From an uncultured Phycisphaeraceae bacterium (lineage in GTDB: Bacteria; Planctomycetota; Phycisphaerae; Phycisphaerales; UBA1924), in contig CAZCBN010000001.1 in NCBI GenBank assembly GCA_964496975.1, forward strand, positions 57,678 to 121,677: 64,000 nt of DNA, written 5' to 3'. Below, in pieces: positions 38,299 through 55,160 of the stretch. The translations under genes and the position numbers were made by a program. Numbering within the stretch: position 1 is the first letter of the stretch; every line of letters starts with the position of its first letter. Under the pieces are notes generated by a model. The model was not told the origin of the DNA. It did not search any database and saw only the letters and a list, made by a program, of their open reading frames with translations.

Positions 38299-38868
38299 AT
38301 GCAGGCGCCTGCGGTCGTCAAACCCCACACGCTCCGAGACCTCTGCCCGGTTGACGTCAGCCAGCTCACCCGGCAGGTGGCGCAGCTGTCGGATGCCGTC
38401 TGGACGGCGCTCGATGCGGCCAAAGAAAACAAGTTCGCGGTGCTGGGCCACACCCGGCACATCATCTTCCGGTTCTTCCACCCCGCCGAGGATCCCCGGC
38501 GCTTTGTGTCCCACTCCATCTGGCACGCCTGGCGGGAGTCGCTGATGGCCGTGATGGCGCCGGTCGGGGCCACCTACGGTTACGCCCAGCCGGAATTTCC
38601 CAAGGTCATGCTCGCCAGCCTGCCCCCTGGGGGCGTGATTCACCCGCACACCGATGGTGCGGGCGGCAACCTGCTCACGCACAAGATTCACGTGCCACTC
38701 ACCACCAATCCCGGCGTCACGTTCACGATTCGTGACGAAGTGTTCCACCTGGACGTCGGTCGGGCGTACGAGGTGAACAACATCGCGAGACATGGCGGCG
38801 CCAACCACGGCACCGAGGCGCGGGTGCACCTGATCTTCGAGGTGTTCGATCGCGCAGGTCTGGACTGA
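38299..38868 (+). CDS. Aspartyl/asparaginyl beta-hydroxylase-family (2OG-Fe(II) cupin) protein
   Basis: VIHPHTDGAGGNLLTHKIHVPLTTNPGVTF..YEVNNIARHGGANHG..RVHLIFEV (HxD...H facial-triad arrangement). Confidence 0.7.
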   Translation: MQAPAVVKPHTLRDLCPVDVSQLTRQVAQLSDAVWTALDAAKENKFAVLGHTRHIIFRFFHPAEDPRRFVSHSIWHAWRESLMAVMAPVGATYGYAQPEFPKVMLASLPPGGVIHPHTDGAGGNLLTHKIHVPLTTNPGVTFTIRDEVFHLDVGRAYEVNNIARHGGANHGTEARVHLIFEVFDRAGLD

Positions 38869-41143: not shown

Positions 41144-41977
41144 ATGATGCGAGGTGACGCCATGAGCGGATTTAATCGCTGCACCTGGGCTCGCGCCGGG
41201 TACGTCGTCTACAACGCCCACGACGTGTACATCGGACAGGCGTTCGAGCGGTACGGCGAGTACTCCGAGATCGAGGCGAGATTGTTGCGGCGGCTTTGCC
41301 CTGCTGGGGGCATCGCCGTGGACCTGGGCGCCAACATCGGCGCACACACGCTGGCGCTCTCGAGCGCCGTCGGGCCGGACGGATTCGTCTATGCGTACGA
41401 ACCGCAGCGCGTGGTGTTCCAGACCCTGTGCGCCAATCTCGCGCTCAACAACATCACGAATGTCGACGCGCGCCAGGCCGCCGCGGGCGCGTCCAGCGGC
41501 ACGGTCCTGATTCCCGATCTGGACTACCGCCGACGTGGCAACTTTGGCGGCGTGGACGTGAGCCGGTTCACGAGCGGCCGGCCGGTCCGGCGGGTGGCGC
41601 TCGACGACGACCTCGATGTGCCGGGCCTGAACCTGCTGAAGGTTGACGTGGAAGGCATGGAGCGGGAAGCGCTGCAGGGCGCCCGGCGGCTGATCGCGCG
41701 GTGCCGGCCCTACCTCTACGTCGAAAACGATCGCCTCGACCGTTCAGAGGCGTTGCTGCGCTGTCTGCTCGAGTGGGACTACCGGCTCTACTGGCACCAG
41801 CCGCCGCTGTTTAATCCCGGCAACTTCCTCGGCGCCACTGAGAACGTCTACCCGGGGATTGTCTCGGTGAACGTCCTGGCCGTGCCCCGCGAGTCGCCGC
41901 AGCCGCTGCTGGGGCTTCCCGAGGTGCGCGATCCTGCCGAACATCCCCTTCGCGCCCGGCCCGAGGCCCCTCGCTGA
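41144..41977 (+). CDS. FkbM-family methyltransferase
   Basis: VDLGANIGAHTLALSSAV..VYAYEPQRVVFQTLCANLALNNITNV..LNLLKVDVEGMEREALQGA. Alternative start at ATG 41162. Confidence 0.8.
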   Translation: MMRGDAMSGFNRCTWARAGYVVYNAHDVYIGQAFERYGEYSEIEARLLRRLCPAGGIAVDLGANIGAHTLALSSAVGPDGFVYAYEPQRVVFQTLCANLALNNITNVDARQAAAGASSGTVLIPDLDYRRRGNFGGVDVSRFTSGRPVRRVALDDDLDVPGLNLLKVDVEGMEREALQGARRLIARCRPYLYVENDRLDRSEALLRCLLEWDYRLYWHQPPLFNPGNFLGATENVYPGIVSVNVLAVPRESPQPLLGLPEVRDPAEHPLRARPEAPR

Positions 41978-43931: not shown

Positions 43932-43989
43932 CGCAGACGCGCATTCTACCCGCCGCCGGGGGCGTGAGGCCCTGTGATATGGTCCGGCC

Positions 43990-44796
43990 GTGTCGTCGAC
44001 GCCGACCGATCCGCCCGATCTCTCCGGCAGCATCGTCGTCCTGGCTCACGCGCGAACCGGATCGTCACTGGTGATGCAGACGCTGCGCCTGCTCGGGGCG
44101 CAGGTGCTGGGCGACTTCGCGCGGCCCGACCTGCCGCAGTCGGCGAATCCGAAGGGCTACTTCGAGGATTTGGATCTGCTGCGCGACGGCCTGTCGGCGC
44201 GGGCCCTGGCCGACGCCCCGCGCCTGCTGCGCGGGCGCGCCGTGAAACTGGCGCTGCACCCGCTGGTCCACCGTCGATCGCGCGGCGAGTGGACGGCGTT
44301 GGCGCAGCCCGAGGTCCGGCTCCTGCTGCCGATCCGGACGCCGGCCGAATCGCTGACCTCGCGCCAGGTCTTCCTGCGATCGGATGACCCGCGCGCGCGG
44401 CACGACCTGTTCCACATGTCCGCGCGCAACCGGCTGCTGGATTTCGGGTTTCTCGCCGAGTGGGTTGGCGCGGCGGGGCGCCATCGCCCGGCCCCGGCCG
44501 TCATCGACTACGAACTCGCCATCGCCGATCCCGCGCGGTATGTGGCGCAGGTGGCGGACGCCGCGGCCCTGCAGCCGACCGGCGCGCAGCGGTCCGCGGC
44601 GCTCGACAACATCGATCGGGATCTCTACCGGTTCCGCCTGGCCGGCGACACCGCCACTCGCGCGGCGGCCGGCGTTCGGCCCCTCGAGCGCGTGTATGAC
44701 CTGCTGCGCGCCAATGATCCCGACCGGTGGGCGCGGCTTCGTGACTCGTTGCCGCCCTGGGTGTCCGAGGCGGCACGCGCGCCGCTGACCGACTGA
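43990..44796 (+). CDS. Sulfotransferase-like P-loop protein
   Basis: GTG start. IVVLAHARTGSSLVMQTL resembles the 5'-phosphosulfate-binding loop of Stf0-type sulfotransferases. Confidence 0.5.
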   Translation: MSSTPTDPPDLSGSIVVLAHARTGSSLVMQTLRLLGAQVLGDFARPDLPQSANPKGYFEDLDLLRDGLSARALADAPRLLRGRAVKLALHPLVHRRSRGEWTALAQPEVRLLLPIRTPAESLTSRQVFLRSDDPRARHDLFHMSARNRLLDFGFLAEWVGAAGRHRPAPAVIDYELAIADPARYVAQVADAAALQPTGAQRSAALDNIDRDLYRFRLAGDTATRAAAGVRPLERVYDLLRANDPDRWARLRDSLPPWVSEAARAPLTD

Positions 44797-45663
44797 CTAC
44801 GGCGCCGACGCCCAGTCCGCCCGCGCGGCCTGCCACTGCAGGAACGGCCCGCGGCGGTCTTCCTCCATGGCGTGCAGCGCGGCGGCCGTCACGTTCCACG
44901 GCTTGGGTGGCCCGAGAAAGTGCACGAGTGCGGCGTCGGCCACCGGGACCCGCGGCCGGGTATACCGCGCCATGTGGCCCGCGATGAAATAGTTGTAGTG
45001 TTCGCGAGCCCTCGTCCAGCGCCCCCGGAAGTACCGGTTGAGGATCACGCTGTCGGTGTGCCCTGTCCGCACCCCGGCCCAGGTCTCCGGACGCACCAGG
45101 TCCACCAGATCGCGGAAGGTCGATTCCCCGAGCCGGCCCGGCGCGATCGAGAGCACCCCCGCGTTGAACATCAGGTCGCCGGCACGCGCCTCGAGCGCCT
45201 CCGGTCCGACCTCGGCCGCGACGTACGTCACCGGGTCGCGAATCTGTCCGCGGTAATAACTCTGATCGGGACACGCGAGCAGCGGGGCGTCGGTGGCCGC
45301 CAGCGCGGCGACGGTGCCGGTACAGAGCACGTCGCTGTCGATTTTCAGCACCCGCGCGTACTCGGTAAGGCTGAAGGCGTCGAGCGCAAACAGGATGCGG
45401 GCTTTACGCGCGACCGCGGGCACCTGGTCGGCCGTGGCCGTCACGCGCGCCTTCAGCCGCGCGTCCACCGCGCGGAAGGTCACGTTCGGAAACCGGCGGA
45501 GCGCCTCCACCGCCGCAGGCGGCAGCCCATCGTGGATGATGACAATGCGGCCGGTGAACCACGGGTTGTGGCGCAGGAACGACCACAGCAGCACCAGCGT
45601 CCCCGGCAGGTACGCCTCATCGGTCACCGTGGCCAGGCAGGTTGAATCGGGCGCGGTAATCAA
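44797..45663 (-). CDS. GT8-family glycosyltransferase
   Basis: CLATVTDEAYLPGTLVLLWSFLRHNP.., DxD-type KIDSDVLCTG, and C-terminal HFLGPPKPW. There is no in-frame ATG near the domain start, so TTG 45663 was chosen. The 536-aa track ORF is 5'-extended. Confidence 0.7.
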   Translation of the reverse strand: MITAPDSTCLATVTDEAYLPGTLVLLWSFLRHNPWFTGRIVIIHDGLPPAAVEALRRFPNVTFRAVDARLKARVTATADQVPAVARKARILFALDAFSLTEYARVLKIDSDVLCTGTVAALAATDAPLLACPDQSYYRGQIRDPVTYVAAEVGPEALEARAGDLMFNAGVLSIAPGRLGESTFRDLVDLVRPETWAGVRTGHTDSVILNRYFRGRWTRAREHYNYFIAGHMARYTRPRVPVADAALVHFLGPPKPWNVTAAALHAMEEDRRGPFLQWQAARADWASAP

Positions 45664-45681: not shown

Positions 45682-46251
45682 ATGCGCAGAGTCTTCGGCA
45701 TCGGATTCCACAAGACGGGGACGTCGAGCCTCGCGGCCGCGCTGGCGCTGCTCGGCTACCGGGTGTGCCAGGGCGCACGGCCGATTCGCCAGGCGCTCGG
45801 CGTCACCGAAGCCCTCGACCTGCTGCGCCGCCACGAGCTGGACCCGATCCTGCGGGTGGCCGAGCGCTTCGACGCCTGCACCGACAATCCCTGGTTTCTC
45901 CTGTACCGCGAGCTCGACGAGCGCTTTCCGGGGAGCCAGTTTATCCTGACTCATCGGCCGCCGGCCGCGTGGCTCGCGAGCGCGCTGCGGTACTACGGCC
46001 GCAGTGAGACCCCGATGCGGCACTGGATCTACGGGGTCGGCACGCCCACCGGTCACGAGGCCGTTTGGCTTGCGCGGTACGAGCGGCACCTGGCCGACGT
46101 GCGCCGGCACTTCGCCGGCCGGCCGGATGACCTGCTCGAGGCGGACTGGACGCAGGGCGACGGCTGGTCCACGTTGGGCCGCTTTCTCGGGCGGAAGACA
46201 CCATCCCAGCCGTTTCCCCACGTCCGACCGGTTCGCTCCCCGCGCCCCTAG
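45682..46251 (+). CDS. Sulfotransferase-family protein
   Basis: MRRVFGIGFHKTGTSSLAAAL (PAPS 5'-PSB loop-like) and ..FILTHRPPAAWLAS. Same orientation as the PqqD gene and 46 nt upstream of it. Confidence 0.65.
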   Translation: MRRVFGIGFHKTGTSSLAAALALLGYRVCQGARPIRQALGVTEALDLLRRHELDPILRVAERFDACTDNPWFLLYRELDERFPGSQFILTHRPPAAWLASALRYYGRSETPMRHWIYGVGTPTGHEAVWLARYERHLADVRRHFAGRPDDLLEADWTQGDGWSTLGRFLGRKTPSQPFPHVRPVRSPRP

Positions 46252-46297
46252 CACCCCGCGCGGCGGTATGGGATACTTCTGCCCGGGAGCGAGAGGC

Positions 46298-46588
46298 ATG
46301 TCACGCGAACACACCGTGCATCTGGAGTCCGTCATTTCGCGGTCGGAGGAGATCATCTTCACCGACCTGAACGATGACGTGACGATGATGGACGCCAGAA
46401 CGGGCAAGTACTATGCCCTGCCGAAAGTCGGCGGGCGGATCTGGACGCTCCTCGCCCAGCCCATGTCGGTCGCCGCCCTCTGCGATCGTCTCCTCTCCGA
46501 ATACCGCGTCGACCGCAAGCGGTGCGAGGAGGAAGTCTGCGCCCTGTTGGCAGACATGCACACTGCGGGCATCGTCAATCGATCCTGA
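46298..46588 (+). CDS. PqqD-family protein (RiPP recognition element)
   Basis: 96 aa: SEEIIFTDLNDDVTMMDARTGKYYALPKVGGRIWTLLAQPMSVAALCDRLLSEYRVDRKRCEEEVCALLADMHTAGIV, the canonical PqqD pattern. GGGAGCGAGAGG lies upstream of ATG 46298. Confidence 0.8.
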   Translation: MSREHTVHLESVISRSEEIIFTDLNDDVTMMDARTGKYYALPKVGGRIWTLLAQPMSVAALCDRLLSEYRVDRKRCEEEVCALLADMHTAGIVNRS

Positions 46589-46612
46589 ACCGAGTCAGAA
46601 AGGACACCACAC

Positions 46613-46771
46613 GTGGACACCAACGAGCCCCCCGAACGTTTCGCCGAGCCGACGCCTGCGTTGAAGGAGTGGGAAACGCCGACGCTGATCACGGAAGACA
46701 TCGTCGAAGTGACCAAGGGAGGTTCGTTGACCCTGGCCAGCCCGGGGGATGACACCTGGTATCGGTCCTAG
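46613..46771 (+). CDS. Candidate RiPP precursor peptide (52 codons, not in the ORF track)
   Basis: GTG 46613 to TAG 46769-46771, with AAAGGA about 9 nt upstream, 24 nt after the PqqD stop. Peptide: VDTNEPPERFAEPTPALKEWETPTLITEDIVEVTKGGSLTLASPGDDTWYRS. It has a W-x-x-P-x-L leader motif, a T-K-G junction and a C-terminal Ser. Confidence 0.5.
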   Translation: MDTNEPPERFAEPTPALKEWETPTLITEDIVEVTKGGSLTLASPGDDTWYRS

Positions 46772-46786
46772 TCGGCGGCCGCGCCC

Positions 46787-47722
46787 TCAGGCGCCGGCGG
46801 CCGGCGCCACCGCCAGCTCGGCGCGCACCAGCTGCACAAGCTGCGGCAAGTCCGCCAGACGCGTCGTCCGCCTCAACGCCACCACGGGGACACGCGTCCC
46901 GACCGCGACGCACAACCCGAAGTGCGTACGCGATTGGCCAAGCGCCAGAGAGATCGGCCGCCGGTAGGTGCCGGCGGCGACTGCGGGCACCCGCGCCGCG
47001 CCGGTGATGCGCCGCAGTGCCGGAACCTCGCCCGGCGGTCCTTCGAAGACAAAAATCCGATCGATCGGCACCGGTGCGGGCGACGCGGGCTCGAACTCGA
47101 CGTGGTGCTTGCCGCGGACGGCGGCACTGCCGCGTCCCGCGGCCACCCAGGCCAGTGAGTCGGCCTGCAGCCGGAACTGACGCGCGCCGGGGTGGACCTG
47201 CGGGCGGCCGGCCGCGTCGAGCGACACGACCGCGAGATCCTCGGCGATGACGCGATGCGCCCCCGCATGAAACGCGGCGGCCAGCGTCGACTTGCCGGCG
47301 CCCGGCCGACCGGCGAACAACACACAGTGGCCATCCACCTCCACGGCGCTGGCGTGCATCGGCAGCGCCCCTCGCTGGTGGACCAGCGCCGCCATGACTG
47401 AGGACAGCAGGAACAGGCGGACATCCTCGAGCGAGGCGCCCGGCAGCGGCGCGACGACTACCTCGCGTCCCTCCCGAACCCAGTACCTCGCAATCCGCGG
47501 CAGGTCCAGCAGATACTCACCGGCGGCCGCGGCGTATCGCCGGCGCCGGGTCGGCTGCCCCGCGAGATCGAGCGGGGTGTCGCCGTACCGGATGACGACA
47601 TCCGGCTCCGCCTCCGTCGGCATCAGGGCGGGCAGTTCGAGGTCCGACGCGATCGTGACCCCGTGCGCGCGGTAACGGTAGCCGACGACTGGTGCGCCGG
47701 TCGGCTTATCATCGGTCACCAC
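46787..47722 (-). CDS. HprK C-terminal-domain-like serine kinase (HprK-related kinase)
   Basis: PMHASAVEVDGHCVLFAGRPGAGKSTLAAAFHAGAHRVIAEDL is the P-loop context of HPr kinase-like proteins. The N-terminus YRYRAHGVTIASDLELPAL..PDVVIRYG matches the family. A GTG start at 47722 (or 47719) was chosen; the 415-aa track ORF is 5'-extended. Confidence 0.75.
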   Translation of the reverse strand: MVTDDKPTGAPVVGYRYRAHGVTIASDLELPALMPTEAEPDVVIRYGDTPLDLAGQPTRRRRYAAAAGEYLLDLPRIARYWVREGREVVVAPLPGASLEDVRLFLLSSVMAALVHQRGALPMHASAVEVDGHCVLFAGRPGAGKSTLAAAFHAGAHRVIAEDLAVVSLDAAGRPQVHPGARQFRLQADSLAWVAAGRGSAAVRGKHHVEFEPASPAPVPIDRIFVFEGPPGEVPALRRITGAARVPAVAAGTYRRPISLALGQSRTHFGLCVAVGTRVPVVALRRTTRLADLPQLVQLVRAELAVAPAAGA

Positions 47723-47724
47723 GC

Positions 47725-49506
47725 ATGCTGCTCCTGGACGCTGAGCTTGACACACTTCTCGCGGCCATCGCCACCGGCGACGCGCGCGTGGTATCGCCGC
47801 TGTTTGCCGCCTACCTCGCGGCCGAGCCGCGCGCCGGACGAAAGCGGCATCTGGCCGGCCTGCAGTTGCTGGCGCGCGGCCACCGCGGCGAGGCCAGCGC
47901 GAGACTGGAGGCGGCGGCACTCGAGGCGCCGGACGCCGGCGCAATCCGCAACAACCACGGCCATGTGCTGATGCTCCGGGAACAATGGGACGCGGCGGCG
48001 GCGCAGCTGCGCGCCGCGCATGCGCTGCTCCCATCGGCCATCGAACCGCTGGTCAATCTGGCGGACATCCTGGCGCTCTGTGACCTGCCGTCGGAAGCGC
48101 GCCGCGTCCTCGACCGCGCGCTGGCGATCGCGCCCGATCATCCCGACACCGCCCTCCGTCTGCTCCGGCTCAGCCTCCGCCTCTCCGATCAGGCCGGCGC
48201 GGCGCACGCCGCGTCCATCCTGGCGCGCGCGCCGGCGCCGTCGGCCGCCGCCTCGTACGGCCTCGGCCGGTACTGCGAACACATCGGCGATCTGGACGCC
48301 GCCGCGCGCCACTTCTCAGCCGCGGCGGCGATGGGCAGCGGCGCAGCGCACAGCCGCCTGGCCCGGCAGGCGCTCGATCGTCACGACCTGGATGCGCTCA
48401 CCCGCCATGCGGCGCTGGCGACGACGCTGGCACCCGATGACAGTGACGCCTGGCGCGTGCGCGCGCTTTCGCATCAGCTGGACGGCGACCTCGCCGGGGC
48501 GCGGCGCGCGGCCCACCTGGCGTTTGCCTGCAGCCGCCAGACCGCCCGTGACGTCGCCAACTACATCGAGACCCTGGCGTTCGACCTCGGGACCGAGGTG
48601 TCGCTGGCCGGGTACGAGTCGCGCTGGAGCACGCGGACTCCGCAGCCGGAGGCGGCCCGGTCGCGGTTCTCCGGCCGGCGATGGCTGGGCCAGCCTGCCG
48701 GCAGCGACCACGACCTCCTGATCCACACGGAACAGGGACTCGGCGACGCGCTGCAGTACATCCGTTGCGTCAGCGCCGTGCAGGCGCTCGGATGGCGCGT
48801 ACACCTGGCCACTCATCCCGCCCTTCTCCGGTTGCTGGCACGCGTGCCTGGCGTCGCCTCCGTCACCACCCTCGAGGAGGCCGCGGCGCTGCCGTGGCAC
48901 TGCCCGACGGCGAGCCTGCCCTTTGCGGTTGAGCCGCAGCTGGGTGATCCGGCCGCCAGTGTCCCGTACGTGTCGGCCGACCCCGCCGACATCGAGACCT
49001 GGCGGCGCCGGCTCGCGGGCGGCCCGGGGCCCACGGTCGGACTCGTCACCAGCTGCAATCCCCGGCACCCGCGACACGCCCAGCGATCGATCCCGTGGGC
49101 CCTGATCGCGCCGCTCGCGCGGGTCGCAGGCGTGACGTTCGTCCTGATTCAGCCCGACGAGGCGGGCGGCCCCCCGCGGTTTCGCCGCGCGCCCTCGACG
49201 TGGCCGGGCCCGGCGCGACTCCTCGATGTCAGCGATCATGGCGGCGACCTGCTCGAGACCGCCGCCGCAATCGCCGCGCTCGACCTGCTGGTCACCGTCG
49301 ATACCGCCCTGCTCCACCTCGGCGGGGCGCTGGGCCAGCCGGTCTGGGCGTTGCTGTCCGCGTATCCGCAGGCGCGGTGGCTGCCGCGTCCCGGCCGGAC
49401 GTGGTACCCCACGGTGCGACTCTTTCAGCAATCAGTGCCGGGCGACTGGACCGCAGTCATTGAGTCGGTGCGGGCCGAGCTGAGTGCGGCTTACGCCCGC
49501 AAGTGA
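47725..49506 (+). CDS. TPR-repeat protein fused to a GT9 (heptosyltransferase-like) glycosyltransferase domain
   Basis: About 300 aa of TPR-like helices (..ARRVLDRALAIAPDHPDTALRLL..). GT9 part: LLIHTEQGLGDALQYIRCV..VGLVTSCNPRHPRHAQRSIPW..LLVTVDTALLHLGGALGQPVWALL. The ATG 47725 start is uncertain. Confidence 0.75.
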   Translation: MLLLDAELDTLLAAIATGDARVVSPLFAAYLAAEPRAGRKRHLAGLQLLARGHRGEASARLEAAALEAPDAGAIRNNHGHVLMLREQWDAAAAQLRAAHALLPSAIEPLVNLADILALCDLPSEARRVLDRALAIAPDHPDTALRLLRLSLRLSDQAGAAHAASILARAPAPSAAASYGLGRYCEHIGDLDAAARHFSAAAAMGSGAAHSRLARQALDRHDLDALTRHAALATTLAPDDSDAWRVRALSHQLDGDLAGARRAAHLAFACSRQTARDVANYIETLAFDLGTEVSLAGYESRWSTRTPQPEAARSRFSGRRWLGQPAGSDHDLLIHTEQGLGDALQYIRCVSAVQALGWRVHLATHPALLRLLARVPGVASVTTLEEAAALPWHCPTASLPFAVEPQLGDPAASVPYVSADPADIETWRRRLAGGPGPTVGLVTSCNPRHPRHAQRSIPWALIAPLARVAGVTFVLIQPDEAGGPPRFRRAPSTWPGPARLLDVSDHGGDLLETAAAIAALDLLVTVDTALLHLGGALGQPVWALLSAYPQARWLPRPGRTWYPTVRLFQQSVPGDWTAVIESVRAELSAAYARK

Positions 49507-50153
49507 GTCGGGCCGCGACCCGGCTCGTGCCCGGCATACCCAAACGCCTCGATATCTTCGCGATAAGTCACGGCCACCTTCGCTGCCAGGTCGTCGGTGT
49601 AATAACTCGCCGCCGCCTCGTGGGTGGAGGCGTTCAGCTGCGGCAGCGGGCCTGACGGCAGGCCAAGGCGACGGCAGACATGGTCGAAGTCGTCCTGCAG
49701 ACGCTCGAAGCGGCCGATGAAGTCCAGGGACAGGCGGCCGACGGCATCAATCAGAAATGACTGTTGCGCCGCGAACCACGTGTCTGCCCGCGTCCGTTCG
49801 CTCTCGAGCAACAGCGGCAGGTACCGCTGGGGATACGCCTGGAACAGCGGCCGGTGGGCGTTCCGGAAGAACGCGCACGAAATGAACCGATCCCACGGGT
49901 TCCGGACGAATGCAAATTTGAAATAGCCGGACCACGCCTCGGCAGGCAGCCACGGCTGGGCCTCAACCGCGCGAATGTGCCCGTGTCCGATTCGCGCCAG
50001 CGCGTCGATGGGCAGGCGCCGCGACGCTTGCCAGTCGGACTGTTCCCAATCGCGCACCGGATCCAGATGGGGCCGCAGCGCGGCCCGGATGGACTGAGTG
50101 CCGGTCTTCGGGACCGCGAGAAAGATGAACCTCCTGGAGTGGCAGACGATCAT
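49491..50153 (-). CDS. Sulfotransferase family 2-like protein
   Basis: MIVCHSRRFIFLAVPKTGTQSIRAAL (PKxGT-type PAPS loop) and ..FAFVRNPWDRFISCAF. Confidence 0.7.
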   Translation of the reverse strand: MIVCHSRRFIFLAVPKTGTQSIRAALRPHLDPVRDWEQSDWQASRRLPIDALARIGHGHIRAVEAQPWLPAEAWSGYFKFAFVRNPWDRFISCAFFRNAHRPLFQAYPQRYLPLLLESERTRADTWFAAQQSFLIDAVGRLSLDFIGRFERLQDDFDHVCRRLGLPSGPLPQLNASTHEAAASYYTDDLAAKVAVTYREDIEAFGYAGHEPGRGPTHLRA

Positions 50154-50251
50154 GGCACGTCAGACCGACTATACTCCTGCCACACCGTTCAGTCGTGTGT
50201 GTGGAGCCGTTGTTCAGACGGCGCGGTCGTCACTGCGTAGAGGAGATGTCG

Positions 50252-50899
50252 ATGGAAGCATTTATCGGAACGATTCAGGCCTTCGGATTCAACTTTCCAC
50301 CGCGCGGCTGGGCGCCGTGTGACGGACGCCAGCTCTCGATCGCGCAGTGGAGCGCCGTCTTCTCGCTGCTGGGCACCCAGTTTGGCGGCAACGGGCAGAC
50401 CACGTTCGCGCTGCCTGACCTGCGCGGGCGCCACATGGTCAACCAGGGACAGGGCCCTGGCCTGCAGATGTACACGATCGGGCAGACTGGCGGCGCGGAA
50501 AGCACCACGCTGACCCAGGGCCAGATGCCGATGCACACGCACATCGCGGTGGCGCAGCCGCACACCCACTCGACCCAGGCGCACACCCACACCAACACCG
50601 CGACGTCGGCGCTGTTTGCCGAGCGTCTCGCCGGGAATCTGGCCAACCCGAACGGCAACATGATGGCGTCGGCGGCCAACATGTACCTCGCGCCGGCGGC
50701 CCAGAACAACGTGCAGCTCGCGGCCGACTCGATCACCACCGCGGTCACGATTGATCAGGCGGCGGTCACACTCGACCCCGCCACCGTCACCGTCACCAAC
50801 AGCGCGGCCGGCGGCTCCCAGCCGTTCGACAACCGTCCGCCGTACCTCTGCGTGAACATCTGCATCTGCCTCGAAGGCATCTTCCCGTCGCGGAACTGA
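50252..50899 (+). CDS. Phage tail collar domain (MdpB-like) protein
   Basis: MEAFIGTIQAFGFNFPPRGWAPCDGRQLSIAQWSAVFSLLGTQFGGNGQTTFALPDLRGR, an HTH-rich middle (MPMHTHIAVAQPHTHSTQAHTHT), and the C-terminus GGSQPFDNRPPYLCVNICICLEGIFPSRN. Confidence 0.8.
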   Translation: MEAFIGTIQAFGFNFPPRGWAPCDGRQLSIAQWSAVFSLLGTQFGGNGQTTFALPDLRGRHMVNQGQGPGLQMYTIGQTGGAESTTLTQGQMPMHTHIAVAQPHTHSTQAHTHTNTATSALFAERLAGNLANPNGNMMASAANMYLAPAAQNNVQLAADSITTAVTIDQAAVTLDPATVTVTNSAAGGSQPFDNRPPYLCVNICICLEGIFPSRN

Positions 50900-50906
50900 C
50901 GCGCCG

Positions 50907-52040
50907 ATGTCCCTGGGCCGTTCCGGCCCGCTCCGCGTGGGCGTGTTGCCGCCAGGTTCGAGTTTCGTGCCGCTGCTGGCAGAGGATCTGCTTGCGGCCT
51001 TGGAACTCGGCCTGGCGGACGCGGGCGTGCCGGCTGAACTCGTGGCCGAGTTCGCCGACCACAATGCCGACCCGAAGGTGGTCGCGCCGAAAGCGCAACA
51101 ACTGCTCGTCGGTCAACGATGCGCGTGCGTGGTCGCGCCCCTGAACGTCTCGTTGATGGAGCGGCTGGCGCCGAACTTCCAGTTCCGGAACAGCCCGCTG
51201 CTGGCCCTGACCCTCGGCGAAGACCCACTGTTCGACACCGCGCGCAATCCCTGCCTGTTCGTGCACAGTCACCAGCTGTGGCGCGCAGCCTGGATGTGCG
51301 GGTACCTCGGCGTCCGTCGCTTCGGCCCCCGCGCGGCGATGCTGCTGGGCCTGCACGACGGCGGCTACGGGCTGGCGTTTGCGTTCCAGCTGGGCCTGGA
51401 GGCCGCGGGCGGAGAGGTGGCCCACGTGGCCGTGACGCACCGGCACTCGCGCCGTGACGATCCGAGCGACGACATCGCGGCGGCGTTGCGCGCGACCCCC
51501 GACTTCGTGTGGGCGGCCTACTCCGGTCTCGAAGCCATCTCGTTCCTGCAGGCCTACGCGCGACGGCCCGGCCTGGCCGCGCTGCCCATCATCGGGCTGT
51601 CACCGCTGGTCGAGGATCACGTCCGTGCCGGAGTGGGCGCCGCCGCGGCCGGCCTGCACATCGTCACCCCCGGTCCGTCGTCGGCCGACCAGCATGCCCT
51701 CACGCTCGCGCTGACGAAGGCGCTGACGCGCCGGCCGCATCCGTATGTGGTGCTGGCGTACGAATCCGCGCGACTCCTCGGTCTGGCGGCCGGACGTGTG
51801 GCCGGCGGCCAGGCCGATCTGCCGGCCGCGCTCCGCGACGTTGCGTTTGACAGCGCCCGCGGCGCGGTGCGGTTTGACGATGGCGTCGAACGTCCAATCC
51901 CGTTCTGCCTGCGACGGATGACCGCTGACGGCGAAACCGTCGACGATGTCGACGGGGTGCCCGCCCTCGACGAGCAATGCGGCGCGGCCCGCCGCAATCT
52001 CGTCAAGCAGGGTTGGGTCAATCCCTACCTCTGCGCGTGA
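50907..52040 (+). CDS. Type I periplasmic-binding-protein-fold (LivK/AmiC-like) protein without signal peptide
   Basis: 377 aa. LRVGVLPPGSSFVP.. and an alternating alpha/beta pattern. No hydrophobic N-terminus. Fold assignment is tentative. Confidence 0.45.
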   Translation: MSLGRSGPLRVGVLPPGSSFVPLLAEDLLAALELGLADAGVPAELVAEFADHNADPKVVAPKAQQLLVGQRCACVVAPLNVSLMERLAPNFQFRNSPLLALTLGEDPLFDTARNPCLFVHSHQLWRAAWMCGYLGVRRFGPRAAMLLGLHDGGYGLAFAFQLGLEAAGGEVAHVAVTHRHSRRDDPSDDIAAALRATPDFVWAAYSGLEAISFLQAYARRPGLAALPIIGLSPLVEDHVRAGVGAAAAGLHIVTPGPSSADQHALTLALTKALTRRPHPYVVLAYESARLLGLAAGRVAGGQADLPAALRDVAFDSARGAVRFDDGVERPIPFCLRRMTADGETVDDVDGVPALDEQCGAARRNLVKQGWVNPYLCA

Positions 52041-53050
52041 TGACCGTCCACGCGTCACCGCCTCGCACGGTCCTGTTTGCCGACGGCCTGGTGGCGCAGC
52101 CGACGATGGAGGCCCTGCTCGGCGCCGGGTGGGTGGCCGGACTGGTCACGCCGCGTGCGTCAGTCGAGGCCTCGCCACTGCGCCTGCTGGCGCGTCACCA
52201 GTCGGTCCCCGTGCTCGACGTCACCCGCGCGGATCTTGCGGCCGGCATCGACACCTGGCTGCAGACCTGCCGGCCGGATCTGGTGTTGTCGATCGCGTTT
52301 CCCTATCGCATCCCCGCGTCGCTGATCGCGATGCCGCCCCTGGGCGCGTTCAACGTACACGGCGGACGTTTGCCCAGGTATCGCGGGCCGCAGCCGGTGT
52401 TCTGGCAACTCGTCAATCAGGAGTCCGAGGGCGCCGTCGCCGTACACCTCATGGACGAGGCGTTCGATCGCGGCCCGGTGGCGGTGTCGCACCCGATCCC
52501 GATTGATCCGGACGACACCCATGGCCTCCACACCGTCCGCGTGGCCTTCGCCGCGGTGGCCGCGGTCCGGGCCCTGTGCGCGGCCCTCCTCCAGTTCGGC
52601 CGCCGCCTCCCCCTCGAGCCGCAGGAGGAAGCCGCCGCCGGCTTTCAGCGGCGGCCGGCCTACGACGACCTGGTCATTCGATGGGACCAGCACACGGGGC
52701 GTGACATTCGCGCACGCGTCAAGGCGGGAAACCCGTGGAACCACGGCGCGTTCACCTCGCTCAAGGGCGTGGACCTTCGACTGACCGACGTGACGCTGAT
52801 CGAAGGCGCCGGCCGGCCGTCGGCCGCCCCCGGTGAGGTGCTGGCCGTTCACGCCGCTGACGGCGTGTTGATCAACTGCCGGGACGGGTCGGCGCTGCGC
52901 GCCGACGTGATCTCCCTGCGCGAAGGACTGCTGCCGGGACGCGCGCTGGCGGCCTTCGGGGTGACGGCGGGTGATTGCTTCACGCCTCCGGTGTCGACCG
53001 GACCGGACGCCGGCGCTCGAGGTCCTGCCACACCGCCTCGAGCGTCGTAA
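52040..53050 (+). CDS. Fmt/ArnA-like formyltransferase (N- and C-terminal domains)
   Basis: The start overlaps the upstream stop (TGATG). PDLVLSIAFPYRIPASL..GAFNVHGGRLPRYRGPQPVFWQL..HLMDEAFDRGPV (N..H..D catalytic pattern), plus a Formyl_trans_C-like end. Confidence 0.8.
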   Translation: MTVHASPPRTVLFADGLVAQPTMEALLGAGWVAGLVTPRASVEASPLRLLARHQSVPVLDVTRADLAAGIDTWLQTCRPDLVLSIAFPYRIPASLIAMPPLGAFNVHGGRLPRYRGPQPVFWQLVNQESEGAVAVHLMDEAFDRGPVAVSHPIPIDPDDTHGLHTVRVAFAAVAAVRALCAALLQFGRRLPLEPQEEAAAGFQRRPAYDDLVIRWDQHTGRDIRARVKAGNPWNHGAFTSLKGVDLRLTDVTLIEGAGRPSAAPGEVLAVHAADGVLINCRDGSALRADVISLREGLLPGRALAAFGVTAGDCFTPPVSTGPDAGARGPATPPRAS

Positions 53051-53903
53051 GGTCCACGCCAGGAATGCCGGCAGCGGGGTCGCCCTGAAACGGTTCAAAC
53101 GGCCGCTTGGCGTGTGTGGCGCAGCGCAGGGCGATCTGCGCCCGTGAGGGCGCGTCATCCGGCAGGCCCATCCAGCGGGCGGCGCGCAGAAACGCCGCCG
53201 GGAACCCTTCGTCGTAGCTCACCAGCAGGCTGCGGGCATCGGACGCCGACAGCGACGACAACGCGCGATAGTGATGCTCGAGCACCGCCGCCGCGTACTG
53301 GTCCAGACTCACCCGTTCCGGATCGTACGCCACGGTGAACGGCGCCGGGTCGAGCAGACCGGGCACCATGTGCATCCCGCGCATCCTCCGCTGTGACGCC
53401 AGCACGGCGGCCGGGGCGCGATACAGCAGGATGAATGGGACACCGGGGAACCACTGGCGGAGTTCCGAGGCATGAAATACGTGCCAGCAGTCCGCCTTCA
53501 CGAAGAGCCGGCCGCCGGGGGCCAGTTGTCCCAGCAGCGACAGCGCCCTGGTGAAGTACTCCTCGCGATTCACGCGACTCGACCGGAGCAGCTGATCGAG
53601 CACGGGGGCCTCGGACACGACCACGTTGCGCGCGTCGAGCGCGAGGAGTTGCGCGAACAGGGTCGACCCGCATCGGGACACGTGAAAGATGAACGCGCCC
53701 GGAGCGGCGGCGCGCGGGACCGGCGCCTCGAGAATCGCCTCGACCGGCGTGAACCGGCGCCCGCCGCCTTCACGGATCACACGCGCGACGGACGCTTCGA
53801 ACAACGGCTCGATGAAGCGGACCCCGGCCACGTCAATCCACTCGCAGCGCTCGACGCCATCCACGGTGACGAGACGTGCCGGCACCCAGCAGGGCTCGCT
53901 CAC
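52980..53903 (-). CDS. Sulfotransferase-like protein
   Basis: The GTG start overlaps the stop of the upstream hydroxylase gene (GTGA, 53900-53903). AFIFHVSRCGSTLFAQLL (PAPS loop-like). The 495-aa track ORF is 5'-extended. Confidence 0.55.
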   Translation of the reverse strand: MSEPCWVPARLVTVDGVERCEWIDVAGVRFIEPLFEASVARVIREGGGRRFTPVEAILEAPVPRAAAPGAFIFHVSRCGSTLFAQLLALDARNVVVSEAPVLDQLLRSSRVNREEYFTRALSLLGQLAPGGRLFVKADCWHVFHASELRQWFPGVPFILLYRAPAAVLASQRRMRGMHMVPGLLDPAPFTVAYDPERVSLDQYAAAVLEHHYRALSSLSASDARSLLVSYDEGFPAAFLRAARWMGLPDDAPSRAQIALRCATHAKRPFEPFQGDPAAGIPGVDLTTLEAVWQDLERRRPVRSTPEA

Positions 53904-54583
53904 CCGTCGGCCTCGAGCGCGTCGGCCAGCCGCCGGTCCGTCTCGGTGCCCCGGCTGCGCAGTTCCTCGACCACGCGGCGACGCACCTCCGGCCTCATCC
54001 GGCGCGCGTCGGCATCGGCGGCGAAGTCGTACCCCGCGGCCGCAAACACGGCGTCCGACCACTCGTTCCGGCGGCCATCGATGATCAGGTGCACGCGGTC
54101 GCTGGCGCCCTCGTTGCTGACGCTGTGCGGCCGCGTGAAATCCGCATACCAGCATTCGCCGGGCTGCATCACGAGCCGATGGCCGGCGACGACGAACCGG
54201 GTCTCGGCATTGGTGGTGATGGGCACGTGCAGGCGGAAGAACCCTTCCGCGTAGGACGCGCCGCGATCGGTGTGTTCGGCGATCACGCTGCCCGGCGTGA
54301 GCCGCAGCAGCCGGACGGTCTCCAGCGGGCACGCAAAGGTGTCGAGCACCTCGCGGAAGTAGGCGCACGCCTGCAGCAGGGACGCCTCGCGATACCCCTC
54401 GAGCCCCGGAATCGACAGCAGGTCGTCCTCGGCCCCGGAGGCCGAACGCAGCGCCACGCCGCCCCATTCGCCGGCGTAATCACGGCGATTGGCGTGTGGC
54501 TGCCAGGCCTGGCGGCAGTGCTCCAGGTCGCCGGCCAGCCGGACCGGGTCGAACCTGAACGGCAGTTGCAGAACGACGGTCAA
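53900..54583 (-). CDS. Aspartyl/asparaginyl beta-hydroxylase-family protein (second copy)
   Basis: [55 protein letters not shown] 54583 was chosen as the start ([16 protein letters not shown]..). The ORF region upstream of it is not protein-like. Confidence 0.65.
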
Positions 54584-54919
54584 TGTAGGTGCGCCTTGTA
54601 GTGCTCTCTCAGCAGGTCGCGTCCGAAGTCGCCGTCGAAGTCCCGCCACACGGAGTGGATGTGGTTGCTGCCCCGGACGCCTCCGTCGGCGTCTGGGCAG
54701 CGCGCGTCCCGGCGACGGCGCGTCGTTCCAGCCTGCTTCCTCGCCGCGGCCTGGAAGATGACGCGGCAAGTATACACGCGTCGCGCACAGTGCGCCGCGG
54801 CCGCCGGCGCGCGGTGAGCCCGTGTATCGCCGGGTGGTTACACACCGTCTCGACCTGGTCCTCGGTGGGACACTCGCGATCGCAACTCTGCCGCTGGCGG
54901 CAGCGGTGACCTGGCGGTC

Positions 54920-55160
54920 ATGGCCTGCCTGGGGCGGCCGCTCTTCTTCCATCAATGGCGGCCGGGCCAACACGGCCGGTTGTTCGGGTTGACGACCGCT
55001 GCTGCCGGATTACCTGCCTCACTACTCCGCTCGTCAGGCCCGGCGCCACGACGTGCGCCCAGAGCTGACGGGGCTGTCGCAGGTGTCGGGTCGCAATGCC
55101 CTTGACTGGCACACTCGGCTCGAACTGGATGTGGCCTACTGGCAATCCCGCCCGAGTCAT
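54920..55160 (+). pseudogene. Remnant of a Bac_transf-type polyprenyl-phosphate sugar-phosphotransferase (priming glycosyltransferase)
   Basis: Frame A gives ..GRPLFFHQWRPGQHGRLF (compare SPGPVFFRQERxGxxGxxF). After a frame change near 54985-54993, frame B gives RPLLPDYLPHYSARQARRHDVRPELTGLSQVSGRNALDWHTRLELDVAYWQSRPS (the conserved C-terminal block). The central catalytic segment, the N-terminal TM region and the extreme C-terminus are missing. Confidence 0.55.

What the first reader, a model, noticed from the sequence alone, without database searches (positions are those of the whole stretch)
45682..46771. Sulfotransferase - PqqD - peptide are co-oriented and tightly spaced: possible sulfated RiPP
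Seen: a sulfotransferase-like gene (PAPS-loop GFHKTGTSSL) ends 46 nt before the PqqD gene on the same strand. The peptide ORF follows 24 nt after PqqD, a plausible three-gene operon. The peptide has a single Tyr in an acidic context (GDDTWY).

Established: bacterial tyrosine sulfation of a ribosomal peptide has a precedent (RaxX/RaxST in Xanthomonas), and Tyr sulfation favours nearby acidic residues.

Inference: the peptide may be sulfated on Tyr or on Ser/Thr as well as phosphorylated. This combination has not, to my knowledge, been described for a bacterial RiPP.
Basis: partly seen in the sequence, partly recalled or inferred. Interest (0 to 1): 0.7.

Follow-up and report, generated by a model that had tools for sequence, protein, structure and literature searches.

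The report
Sulfotransferase operon of lasso-type peptide
A sulfotransferase, a peptide-binding chaperone and a small precursor peptide form a three-gene unit whose order recurs in at least six other loci, and whose gene set recurs in three bacterial phyla; it belongs to an uncharacterised branch of the kinase-containing lasso-peptide gene clusters, so a sulfated and phosphorylated ribosomal peptide is a reasonable, directly testable prediction.

Summary
A Sulfotransfer_4 gene (45682-46251), a PqqD/B1 gene (46298-46588) and a 52-aa peptide gene (46613-46771) lie on one strand with 46- and 24-nt gaps and no terminator-like site in either gap. An HPr-kinase-like gene converges 16 nt downstream.

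It is not a chance juxtaposition:
- The sulfotransferase belongs to a monophyletic clade marked by a 9-residue segment.
- In an unbiased sample, 8 of 8 loci with that segment sit beside PqqD, lasso B2 or lasso-cyclase genes; 0 of 74 without it do (p = 3e-11).
- The order sulfotransferase(-second ST domain)-PqqD-peptide recurs in at least six other loci.

The precursors share a lasso-type leader (W-x-T/S-P-x-L...T-x-GG) and a C-terminal [DE][DN]...Tyr-x-Ser/Thr motif. Tyr and the terminal Ser/Thr are the only invariant hydroxyl residues.

The enzyme groups with natural-product and small-molecule O-sulfotransferases (SgdX2, Cpz8, schistosome oxamniquine ST). It does not group with TPST/RaxST or with carbohydrate sulfotransferases.

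The acceptor (Tyr, beta-hydroxy-Asp/Asn or a sugar) remains unresolved. Sulfotransferase plus HPr-kinase genes in lasso clusters were noted in 2014 and 2016 but never characterised. The window lacks a lasso cyclase and a B2 protease. The core's acidic residue sits at position 11, outside the 7-9 ring rule.

The parts
45682..46251 (+). Sulfotransfer_4 (PF17784) O-sulfotransferase, 189 aa, here called 'ST4'. It carries a 5'-PSB loop GFHKTGTSS, an invariant D68-N-P-W and an R92...S100 3'-phosphate motif. It contains the clade-specific segment at about residues 40-50.
   Evidence: Pfam 116.8 bits. PDB profile hits to SgdX2, Cpz8 and schistosome ST at E 1e-22 to 1e-16. AF2 model pLDDT 93.8. Foldseek TM 0.72-0.78 to SgdX2/Cpz8. 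Invariant residues from alignment A1. Clade and context analysis.
46298..46588 (+). PqqD-family RiPP recognition element (lasso B1-type chaperone), 96 aa.
   Evidence: PF05402 59.3 bits. NCBIfam lasso_PqqD_Bac 78.9 bits against cutoff 80, the top hit. Homologues at 29-48% identity in lasso-type loci.
46613..46771 (+). Precursor peptide, 52 aa. Leader ...KEWETPTLITEDIVEVTK; predicted core GGSLTLASPGDDTWYRS. It has one Tyr and a C-terminal Ser.
   Evidence: Sequence. Homologous precursors in L007, L009, L018, L086, L110, L112, L113 and P0122-P0131 share W-x-[TS]-P-x-L, T-x-G-G and [DE][DN]..Y-x-[ST].
46787..47722 (-). HPr-kinase-related kinase with Walker A GRPGAGKST, convergent on the peptide gene. 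The likely start is GTG 47722, preceded by AGGAG; the start is inferred.
   Evidence: Weak hits to Hpr_kinase_C and to HprK_rel_A/ScmC. 48% identity over 299 aa to the L112 kinase, which is annotated PF27840 ScmC / Hpr_kinase_C. Homologues in L006, L007, L009, L010, L018, L027 and L110. Start read.
44797..45663 (-). Family-8 glycosyltransferase, divergently transcribed from ST4.
   Evidence: PF01501 64.3 bits. A GT8 directly flanks ST4 in L004, L005, L006, L010, L091, L112, L113 and the P0130 contig.
43990..44796 (+). Pfam-less sulfotransferase-fold protein ('W_268') with RTGSS 5'-PSB-like and R-x7-S 3'-PB-like motifs. It is fused C-terminally to ST4 in many homologues.
   Evidence: No Pfam or NCBIfam hit. 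19 of 30 homologue clusters also carry PF17784, and 18 of them are 440-469 aa, long enough to be full two-domain fusions. Alignment. AF2 pLDDT 85.8. All top Foldseek hits are sulfotransferases, with TPSTs first at E 3e-4 and TM 0.44.
38299..38868 (+). Asp/Asn beta-hydroxylase-family protein (first copy).
   Evidence: PF05118 42.7 bits. Homologues in 9 lasso-type loci, plus L112.
53900..54973 (-). Asp/Asn beta-hydroxylase-family protein (second copy; start uncertain).
   Evidence: PF05118 64.5 bits. Homologues in the same loci.
49491..50153 (-). Sulfotransfer_2-family sulfotransferase.
   Evidence: PF03567 54.2 bits. Homologues in L010, L018 and L110.
52980..53900 (-). Sulfotransfer_3-like protein (SRCGST loop). 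The 5' end is uncertain because the ORF overlaps the hydroxylase gene.
   Evidence: PF13469 25.1 bits, below the cutoff of 27. Homologue in L007. Sulfotransfer_3 genes sit at the equivalent place in L112 and L113.
50195..52040 (+). Phage-tail-collar-domain protein (50195-50899) and a Peripla_BP_6 protein (50907-52040). They co-occur with the cluster in Gemmatimonadota/Acidobacteriota-like loci; their role is unknown.
   Evidence: Pfam. Homologues in L004, L005, L007, L112 and L113.

Best explanation
The sulfotransferase gene is a tailoring enzyme of a kinase-type, lasso-related RiPP pathway.

Shown:
- It is a well-formed PF17784 sulfotransferase with intact PAPS-binding motifs.
- It sits in a tight co-oriented unit with a lasso-type PqqD/B1 recognition protein and a precursor peptide.
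- It belongs to a clade that occurs only beside such genes.

Inferred mechanism:
1. The leader (W-x-T-P-x-L ... T-x-GG) is bound by the PqqD protein.
2. On the linear precursor, the HPr-kinase-like enzyme phosphorylates the C-terminal Ser, as PadeK, ThcoK, PsmK and SyanK do.
3. The sulfotransferase transfers sulfate from PAPS to a hydroxyl of the core.
4. The most likely acceptor is the invariant Tyr of the C-terminal [DE][DN]-x-[WFY]-Y-x-S motif.
5. Failing that, the acceptor is the beta-hydroxyl that the two conserved Asp/Asn hydroxylases would put on the [DE][DN] pair.

Expected product: a small, strongly anionic peptide carrying sulfate, phosphate, beta-hydroxyl and possibly sugar. In sister loci a lasso cyclase is present, with or without B2, and would cyclise the peptide. 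In this window neither is present, so cyclisation here is either done in trans or does not happen.
For: - Gene geometry is as described, and no terminator-like site lies in either intergenic gap.
- ST4 is structurally sound and has conserved PAPS-binding motifs.
- Clade specificity: 8 of 8 unbiased loci with the 9-residue segment have PqqD, B2 or cyclase neighbours, against 0 of 74 without it (Fisher p = 2.8e-11). All 12 associated sequences form one exact NJ clade out of 86.
- The order ST4(-W_268)-PqqD-peptide is conserved in the P0130 contig, L006, L086, L091, L112 and L113. In L007 the peptide gene ends 50 nt upstream of ST4.
- The association spans MAGs labelled Gemmatimonadales, Acidobacteriota, Flavobacteriales, Saprospiraceae and Roseivirga.
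- Sister loci encode proteins whose best NCBIfam hit is the lasso isopeptide cyclase (330-416 bits). Their B2 proteins score above cutoff (82-86 bits against 33). The L110 PqqD scores above the lasso cutoff (94.8 bits against 80).
- Tyr and the C-terminal Ser/Thr are the only hydroxyl residues invariant in all 13 distinct precursor sequences.
- Long PqqD loci without ST4 have precursors that end in Ser but lack the Tyr motif.
- Kinase precedent from the literature: PMC8498205 and PMC6993621.
- The closest solved relative, Cpz8, belongs to the caprazamycin pathway. From my own memory, it sulfates a phenol/enol-type hydroxyl.
Against: - There are no experimental data of any kind.
- The acceptor is not identified.
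- ST4's invariant neighbours differ by lineage: GT8 in some loci and two overlapping Asp/Asn hydroxylase genes in L110. Each points to a different acceptor.
- A second sulfotransferase domain (W_268), often fused to ST4, has TPSTs as its top fold hits. Two more sulfotransferase genes lie in the cluster. Any of them could be the Tyr enzyme.
- The precursors are one homologous family, so invariance of Tyr may reflect kinase recognition or a lasso plug rather than sulfation.
- The window lacks a cyclase and B2, so the local cluster could be decaying.
- The surrounding genes are polysaccharide-type: GT2, GT4, Wzy, acyltransferase.
Confidence: 0.6

Rival explanations
1. ST4 does tailor the peptide, but the acceptor is the beta-hydroxyl of a hydroxylated Asp/Asn in the conserved [DE][DN] pair, not Tyr. 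The sulfate may stay, or it may act as a leaving group ('activating' sulfation as in SgdX2).
For: - Asp_Arg_Hydrox genes are present in every adequately covered locus of the family, often in two copies.
- In L110 the order is hydroxylase-ST4-hydroxylase with overlapping stop and start codons.
- In L018, L010 and L027 a hydroxylase gene lies 95-650 nt from ST4, with no other detected gene between them.
- The [DE][DN] pair is invariant in the precursors.
- The top structural hit, SgdX2, is described as a 'bacterial activating sulfotransferase'.
Against: - In the window and in L112/L113 the hydroxylase genes lie 7-8 kb from ST4, while PqqD and the peptide gene lie within about 0.4 kb of it.
- No O-sulfated beta-hydroxy-Asp is known in peptides, to my knowledge.
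- The target of the hydroxylase is itself only inferred.
Confidence: 0.2
2. ST4 sulfates a sugar that the adjacent GT8 attaches to the peptide, giving a sulfated glycopeptide. It does not sulfate an amino-acid side chain.
For: - The GT8-ST4 pair is adjacent in the window and in 8 other loci.
- Glycosylated lasso peptides exist: pseudomycoidin carries a hexose on the phosphate (PMC6993621), and davasins are glycosylated on Ser (PMC11912497).
Against: - ST4's relatives are small-molecule O-sulfotransferases, not carbohydrate sulfotransferases. Foldseek to heparan 3-OST gives only E 1e-3 and TM 0.5.
- A Sulfotransfer_2 gene, from a family I recall (own knowledge, not tested here) as carbohydrate sulfotransferases, is separately present in the cluster.
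- L009 has ST4 but no detectable GT8 in the 11 kb held.
Confidence: 0.12
3. The Tyr is sulfated, but by the second sulfotransferase-fold protein (W_268, 43990-44796) or by the Sulfotransfer_3-like protein. ST4 does something else.
For: - W_268's three best Foldseek hits are tyrosylprotein sulfotransferases.
- W_268 has an RTGSS loop and an R-x7-S motif. From memory, these resemble the TPST PAPS-binding motifs.
- From memory, Sulfotransfer_3 is the Pfam family that holds TPST.
- Fusion of ST4 with W_268 implies two distinct sulfations on one substrate.
Against: - W_268's TPST hits are weak (E 3e-4, TM 0.44) and hardly better than its hits to 3-OST and SULTs.
- W_268 is absent from L007, L009, L018 and L110, whose precursors keep the Tyr. 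ST4 is present in all of them.
Confidence: 0.15
4. The adjacency is incidental here. ST4 and its glycosyltransferase neighbours serve a sulfated polysaccharide or LPS pathway. The PqqD-peptide-kinase genes are a decayed remnant of a lasso cluster that has lost its cyclase and protease.
For: - No Asn_synthase-type cyclase or Transglut_core3 B2 occurs anywhere in the 64 kb. L112/L113 have the cyclase between the peptide and kinase genes.
- The surrounding genes are GT2, FkbM methyltransferase, acyltransferase_3, TPR-GT9, formyltransferase, Wzy and GT4.
Against: - The ST4 clade is never seen away from PqqD/lasso genes in the sample.
- All retained genes are intact ORFs. The same sequence was assembled from four sequencing runs.
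- The precursor keeps every family motif.
- Pseudomycoidin can be made without B1/B2 (PMC6993621), and the cyclase may lie elsewhere in the genome.
Confidence: 0.1

Closest known systems
Kinase-type (phosphorylated) lasso peptide clusters: paeninodin (Paenibacillus dendritiformis), pseudomycoidin (Bacillus pseudomycoides), ThcoK/SyanK systems
   Same: - A split-B architecture with a PqqD-like B1.
- An HPr-kinase homologue.
- Precursors that end in Ser and have a Thr two residues before the predicted core.
- Extra tailoring genes. A 'putative sulfotransferase gene at the start of the cluster' was noted in some Firmicutes clusters and in anaerobes, function unknown (PMC8498205; PMC4289311).
   Different: - The window has no cyclase, no B2 and no ABC exporter.
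- Other phyla are involved (Gemmatimonadota/Acidobacteriota-like and Bacteroidota relatives).
- The conserved accessory set is different: GT8, two Asp/Asn hydroxylases, up to four sulfotransferase genes, and Collar and Peripla_BP_6 proteins.
- The first acidic core residue is at position 10-14 rather than 7-9.
- Whether the Firmicutes sulfotransferases are PF17784 could not be checked, because Zhu 2016 is not held.
RaxX/RaxST of Xanthomonas (Tyr-sulfated ribosomal peptide)
   Same: A bacterial ribosomal peptide predicted or known to be O-sulfated from PAPS, with a Tyr that has acidic residues nearby.
   Different: - ST4 is not TPST/RaxST-like.
- RaxX uses no PqqD/RRE and no kinase.
- RaxX maturation is by a peptidase-containing transporter (own knowledge).
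SgdX2, Cpz8 and the schistosome oxamniquine sulfotransferase (PF17784 structures 8y9p, 9kf1/9kf2, 4mua)
   Same: The same Pfam family and fold: HMM E 1e-22 to 1e-16 and Foldseek TM 0.67-0.78, with aligned PSB loop and D-x-P motif.
   Different: Those enzymes act on small molecules in enediyne-derived, caprazamycin or drug-activation chemistry. None is known to act on a peptide. Identity is only 19-28%.
Canucin A / CanE (beta-hydroxy-Asp in a lasso peptide)
   Same: A lasso-type precursor is hydroxylated on Asp by a cluster-encoded iron/2-oxoglutarate hydroxylase acting on the linear precursor (PMC8498205).
   Different: Here the hydroxylases are PF05118 (AspH-like) and present in two copies. 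Their target is inferred only. Whether CanE belongs to the same family was not tested.

Membership tests
Sulfotransfer_4 (PF17784; SgdX2 / Cpz8 / SmSULT-OR family) | Profile match above the curated cutoff | tested here: met
   116.8 bits against a cutoff of 22.8. PDB profile E 1e-22 to SgdX2.
Sulfotransfer_4 (PF17784; SgdX2 / Cpz8 / SmSULT-OR family) | Sulfotransferase fold with a 5'-PSB loop (K-T-G-T) and a 3'-phosphate-binding R...S | tested here: met
   AF2 pLDDT 93.8. Foldseek TM 0.72-0.78 to 8y9p and 9kf1. K11, T12, G13, T14, R92 and S100 are invariant in 19 homologues. The mapping to PAPS contacts is by analogy.
Sulfotransfer_4 (PF17784; SgdX2 / Cpz8 / SmSULT-OR family) | PAPS-dependent O-sulfation activity | not testable with these tools
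   Needs an enzyme assay.
Tyrosylprotein sulfotransferase / RaxST family | Sequence or fold membership of ST4 | tested here: not met
   Sulfotransfer_3 scores 22.2 bits, below the cutoff of 27. Foldseek to TPST1/2 gives E about 1e-3 and TM 0.47-0.58, far behind the PF17784 structures.
Carbohydrate sulfotransferases (Sulfotransfer_2; heparan 3-OST) | Sequence or fold membership of ST4 | tested here: not met
   No PF03567 hit. 3-OST gives Foldseek E 1e-3 and TM 0.5. A separate PF03567 gene exists at 49491-50153.
Lasso peptide biosynthetic gene cluster | Precursor with a leader recognition motif and Thr at -2 before the core | tested here: met
   W-E-T-P-T-L ... T-K|GG. The same motif occurs in canonical PqqD/B2/cyclase loci L092 and L096-L103.
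Lasso peptide biosynthetic gene cluster | B1 / PqqD-type RRE | tested here: inconclusive
   lasso_PqqD_Bac is the top hit at 78.9 bits, 1.1 bits under the cutoff of 80. The L110 orthologue passes at 94.8 bits.
Lasso peptide biosynthetic gene cluster | B2 transglutaminase-like leader peptidase in the cluster | tested here: not met
   None in the 64-kb window. Present in L004, L005, L007, L010 and L027.
Lasso peptide biosynthetic gene cluster | Asn-synthetase-like macrolactam cyclase (C) in the cluster | tested here: not met
   None in the window. Present in L004, L006, L007, L009, L010, L018, L110, L112 and L113, with the best NCBIfam hit being the lasso cyclase at 330-416 bits, below the cutoff of 525.
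Lasso peptide biosynthetic gene cluster | Asp/Glu at core position 7-9 for the ring | tested here: not met
   The first acidic residue after T-K|G is D11. It is at position 10-14 across the ST4-associated family. The rule is as stated in PMC8498205.
Kinase-type phosphorylated lasso subfamily | HPr-kinase homologue next to the precursor, and a C-terminal Ser | tested here: met
   The kinase gene is 16 nt downstream and convergent, has a Walker A motif, and gives weak Hpr_kinase_C and HprK_rel_A hits. The peptide ends in Ser. Kinase activity was not tested.

The most novel reading that the evidence does not exclude
The window exemplifies an undescribed, cross-phylum family of lasso-related RiPPs.

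The precursors have an invariant T-x-GG junction, an acidic residue at core position 10-14, and a C-terminal [DE][DN]..Y-x-S motif. They would be matured into poly-anionic peptides carrying O-sulfate (from a dedicated PF17784 clade, often fused to a second, new sulfotransferase domain), phosphate, beta-hydroxyl and sugar.

The ring would be either a macrolactam larger than any known lasso ring or, as in this cyclase-less locus, absent altogether. Peptide O-sulfation would then be a new lasso/RiPP tailoring reaction, carried out by an enzyme family so far known only from small-molecule chemistry.
Probability: 0.3. Interest if true: 0.8.

Novelty: new variant of a known kind. Interest (0 to 1): 0.62.

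Why it matters
Sulfation is not among the documented lasso-peptide modifications. A 2022 review of unusual lasso modifications does not contain the string 'sulf', and my literature searches found no sulfated lasso peptide. Bacterial sulfated ribosomal peptides are, to my knowledge, essentially limited to RaxX.

This work links a specific, recognisable sulfotransferase clade, marked by a 9-residue segment and by frequent fusion to a second ST domain, to a specific precursor family. That turns a ten-year-old side remark ('some lasso clusters contain a sulfotransferase') into a defined experiment with a named substrate, candidate sites and complete sister clusters (L007, L112, L113) suitable for expression.

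If confirmed, it would add:
- a peptide O-sulfotransferase to the RiPP toolbox;
- possibly a lasso-like scaffold outside the 7-9 ring rule, which rule-based mining that assumes a 7-9-residue ring might miss (not tested).

Tried and rejected
- Lasso cyclase and B2 search: I looked in the whole window with Pfam on all substantial ORFs and with tblastn using L004, L005 and L112 proteins. None was found.
- Source contig: I tried to reach the 145,870-bp source contig through exact-protein look-ups. Only short Logan contigs were returned, so sequence beyond the window could not be checked.
- TPST/RaxST-like and carbohydrate-ST identities for ST4 are rejected.
- A seven-sequence PqqD alignment was too divergent for the locus finder. 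A three-sequence alignment returned only 24, mostly short, metagenome loci.
- The profile search for precursors returned only 11 clusters. The L112/L113 peptides show that it missed members, so the family is larger than that count.
- W_268 has no sequence-level match in Pfam, NCBIfam or PDB. Only the fold search identified it.
- Zhu et al. 2016 (PMC4919450) is not held. The family of the Firmicutes sulfotransferases and the paeninodin cluster details therefore rest on the review.
- A literature search for SgdX2 returned only noise.
- One Pfam call failed on bad coordinates.
- L004 and L006 precursor genes appear frameshifted or extended in their assemblies and were not used for motif statistics.
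Full report
**1. Observation**

- An ORF starting at ATG 45682 and ending at 46251 encodes a 189-aa protein, MRRVFGIGFHKTGTSSL....
- After 46 nt, an ORF at 46298-46588 encodes a 96-aa protein.
- After 24 nt, a GTG-initiated ORF at 46613-46771 encodes MDTNEPPERFAEPTPALKEWETPTLITEDIVEVTKGGSLTLASPGDDTWYRS. It has one Tyr and a C-terminal Ser.

Family assignments:
- Pfam places the first protein in Sulfotransfer_4 (PF17784, 116.8 bits against 22.8) and the second in PqqD (59.3 bits against 23.4).
- The best NCBIfam model for the PqqD protein is the lasso-peptide B1 chaperone, lasso_PqqD_Bac, at 78.9 bits against a cutoff of 80.

A consensus scan finds no terminator-like site in either gap. Three independent metagenome assemblies carry the identical genes, called in the same way.

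Sixteen nucleotides after the peptide stop, a convergent gene (46787 to about 47722; start read) encodes an HPr-kinase-related P-loop protein.

**2. Wider anatomy**

GC3-guided ORF calling and Pfam/NCBIfam scans show the following genes around the trio:
- a divergent GT8 glycosyltransferase (44797-45663);
- a Pfam-less 268-aa gene (43990-44796, 'W_268');
- a Sulfotransfer_2 gene (49491-50153);
- a tail-collar-domain gene and a Peripla_BP_6 gene (50195-52040);
- a Sulfotransfer_3-like gene (about 52980-53900);
- two Asp/Asn beta-hydroxylase-family genes (38299-38868 and 53900-54973).

These are interspersed with, and followed by, polysaccharide-type genes: GT2, FkbM methyltransferase, acyltransferase_3, TPR-GT9, formyltransferase, Wzy and GT4.

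No Asn-synthetase-like lasso cyclase and no Transglut_core3 (B2) protease occur anywhere in the 64 kb. Pfam and tblastn with orthologues from sister loci agree on this.

**3. Comparative evidence that the sulfotransferase belongs with the peptide**

The sulfotransferase family is large and widespread: 410 protein clusters and 324 genome loci.

I fetched 80 genome loci, plus two contigs of close homologues. I searched them for relatives of the neighbouring genes and aligned the sulfotransferases.
- A 9-residue segment (window residues about 40-50, ALGxxxMMxLLxxxxLEP) splits the family.
- All 8 loci with the segment have PqqD, lasso B2 or cyclase-like Asn synthetase neighbours (the criterion used for the count). 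Most also have an Asp/Asn hydroxylase and a GT8.
- None of the 74 loci without the segment does (Fisher p = 2.8e-11).
- In a neighbour-joining tree of 86 sequences, the 12 associated sulfotransferases form one exact clade. These include the window and four loci reached through PqqD, the peptide or W_268.

The associated loci come from MAGs labelled Acidobacteriota, Gemmatimonadales, Flavobacteriales, Saprospiraceae and Roseivirga.

The local order sulfotransferase(-W_268)-PqqD-peptide recurs in the P0130 contig, in L006, L086 and L091 and in L112 and L113. In L007 the peptide gene ends 50 nt upstream of the sulfotransferase gene.

In the sister loci:
- the Asn-synthetase homologues score best against the lasso isopeptide cyclase model (330-416 bits, below its cutoff of 525);
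- the B2 proteins pass the lasso B2 cutoff;
- the L110 PqqD passes the lasso B1 cutoff.

This is therefore a lasso-related gene-cluster family, and the sulfotransferase clade is specific to it.

**4. The precursor family**

Homologous precursors were recovered from L007, L009, L018, L086, L110, L112 and L113 and from protein clusters P0122-P0131. All share:
- a leader W-x-[TS]-P-x-L-x-x-E-[DN];
- an invariant T-x-G-G junction;
- a C-terminal [DE][DN]-x(1-5)-Y-x(0-1)-[ST], with the residue before Tyr usually aromatic (W, F or Y; Thr in L009).

The C-terminal endings are DDTWYRS (window), DNPWYAS, DDSTTYDS, ENPFYHT, EDKVTTYYHS, ENKVTSFYHS and DDTWYS.

Tyr and the terminal Ser/Thr are the only hydroxyl-bearing residues invariant in all members.

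PqqD loci of 10-20 kb that lack the sulfotransferase (L092, L097-L100, L103) have a canonical B2, cyclase and ABC set. Their precursors also end in Ser, but they lack the Tyr motif and have Asp/Glu at core position 7-9.

In the sulfotransferase-associated family, the first acidic residue after T-x|G is at position 10-14 (D11 in the window). That lies outside the 7-9-residue ring stated for lasso peptides (PMC8498205). If cleavage followed the GG pair instead, rings of 8-12 residues would result. I cannot resolve this, and I flag it as unexplained.

**5. What kind of sulfotransferase it is**

A profile of 19 homologues hits only PF17784 structures in the PDB:
- SgdX2 (8y9p), E 1e-22;
- Cpz8 of caprazamycin biosynthesis (9kf1/9kf2), E 6e-22;
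- the schistosome oxamniquine-activating sulfotransferases, E about 1e-16.

The AlphaFold model is confident (pLDDT 93.8). Foldseek ranks the same proteins first (TM 0.67-0.78). TPSTs and heparan 3-O-sulfotransferases appear only at E about 1e-3 and TM at or below 0.58.

The PSB-loop residues (K11, T12, G13, T14), D68-N-P-W, R92 and S100 are invariant.

It is neither. It belongs to a family so far characterised only on small molecules.

**6. A second sulfotransferase domain**

W_268 has no Pfam, NCBIfam or PDB sequence match. Its family conserves an RTGSS loop and an R-x7-S motif, and its model is reasonably confident (pLDDT 85.8). All of its top Foldseek hits are sulfotransferases. The first three are tyrosylprotein sulfotransferases, but they are weak (E 3e-4, TM 0.44) and barely ahead of 3-OST and SULTs.

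Nineteen of its 30 homologue clusters also carry the Sulfotransfer_4 domain. Eighteen of these are 440-469 aa, long enough for both full domains. In L112 and L113 this fusion protein directly precedes PqqD and the peptide gene. The fusion is independent evidence that both domains act in one pathway. It also makes W_268 a rival candidate for a Tyr sulfotransferase.

**7. Mechanism**

Shown:
- the gene order;
- the family memberships;
- the clade-specific association;
- the precursor motifs.

Inferred:
- The PqqD protein binds the leader.
- The kinase takes the C-terminal Ser.
- The sulfotransferase uses PAPS to sulfate a core hydroxyl.

By parsimony, the invariant sulfotransferase should pair with an invariant acceptor. 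The candidates and my estimates are:

| Acceptor | Probability |
|---|---|
| Tyr | about 0.35 |
| beta-hydroxyl on the [DE][DN] pair, made by the invariant hydroxylases | about 0.2-0.25 |
| Sugar added by GT8 | about 0.1-0.15 |

- The beta-hydroxyl option is supported by the overlapping hydroxylase-ST-hydroxylase genes in L110.
- The sugar option is supported by the recurrent GT8-ST pair.

That the enzyme tailors this peptide at all I put at about 0.75-0.8.

**8. Comparison with what is known, and novelty**

[quoted passage not shown] It was noted again for Firmicutes clusters in 2016, as summarised in PMC8498205, without any functional work.

A 2022 review of unusual lasso modifications contains no occurrence of 'sulf'. 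My searches found no sulfated lasso peptide.

The general idea is therefore not new. What appears to be undescribed is:
- the specific sulfotransferase clade;
- its fusion partner W_268;
- its precursor family with an off-rule acidic position;
- the cross-phylum accessory gene set.

I rate it a new variant of a known kind.

**9. Caveats**

- Everything is in silico.
- The precursors are one homologous family, so motif invariance is not independent evidence.
- The loci reached through PqqD, the peptide or W_268 are ascertainment-biased and were kept out of the 8-versus-74 test.
- The window's own cluster lacks the ring-forming enzymes and may be incomplete or served in trans.
- I could not read beyond the window.

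Noticed in passing
window 43990-44796 (+): This Pfam-less 268-aa protein is a divergent sulfotransferase fold with RTGSS and R-x7-S motifs. In 19 of 30 homologue clusters it shares a protein with the Sulfotransfer_4 domain, 18 of them long enough (440-469 aa) to be full two-domain fusions. It looks like an undescribed sulfotransferase family.
   Followed up: yes
window 46771-46787, compared with L112 11916-15516 and L113 4085-7695: Sister loci carry a Sulfotransfer_3 gene and the lasso-cyclase-like Asn synthetase between the peptide gene and the kinase gene. In the window the peptide and kinase stops are 16 nt apart, and no cyclase or B2 exists in the 64 kb. This looks like a clean loss or relocation.
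   Followed up: partly
window 46718-46771 (core GGSLTLASPGDDTWYRS); L007 9775-9954; L112 11755-11916: In the whole sulfotransferase-associated precursor family, the first Asp/Glu after the T-x-GG junction is at core position 10-14. Neighbouring canonical lasso loci keep it at 7-9. Either the ring is unusually large, the cleavage site differs (after GG), or there is no lasso.
   Followed up: partly
window 50195-52040; L004 5036-7381; L007 5037-7368; L112 6700-9115: One or two phage-tail-collar-domain proteins followed by a Peripla_BP_6 protein are conserved members of the cluster in the Gemmatimonadota/Acidobacteriota-like loci. No role in RiPP biosynthesis is known for either.
   Followed up: no
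L004 281-1816 and L007 8243-9685: A Trp-halogenase-family gene sits in two sister clusters. In L007 it lies between PqqD and a precursor ending NPWYAS. This suggests halogenated Trp in some family members. The window has the Trp but no halogenase.
   Followed up: no
L110 494-2332: The hydroxylase, Sulfotransfer_4 and hydroxylase genes overlap by 4-8 nt, which suggests translational coupling. They are followed by the kinase and a Sulfotransfer_1 gene. The locus carries four sulfotransferase genes of four Pfam families.
   Followed up: partly
window 38892-44033 and 55157-63528: Polysaccharide-type genes (GT2, FkbM methyltransferase, acyltransferase_3, Wzy-like O-antigen ligase, two GT4 genes, GT2-TPR-methyltransferase) interrupt and flank the RiPP-type genes. 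They are not conserved in sister loci.
   Followed up: partly
window 21688-24417 and 33722-36388 (-); 7160-9306 (-): Two large MacB_PCD/FtsX permease genes and a BlaR1-M56/CarboxypepD_reg/TonB_C gene with a BlaI-type repressor are present. From my own recollection this gene content is typical of Acidobacteriota and Gemmatimonadota. That fits the closest sulfotransferase relatives and the 69% GC content.
   Followed up: no
L006 11400-11900 and L004 7688-8266: The PqqD and precursor genes of L006 (a MAG) contain frameshifts. The L004 precursor ORF lacks the expected stop. These are probably assembly errors rather than pseudogenes.
   Followed up: partly
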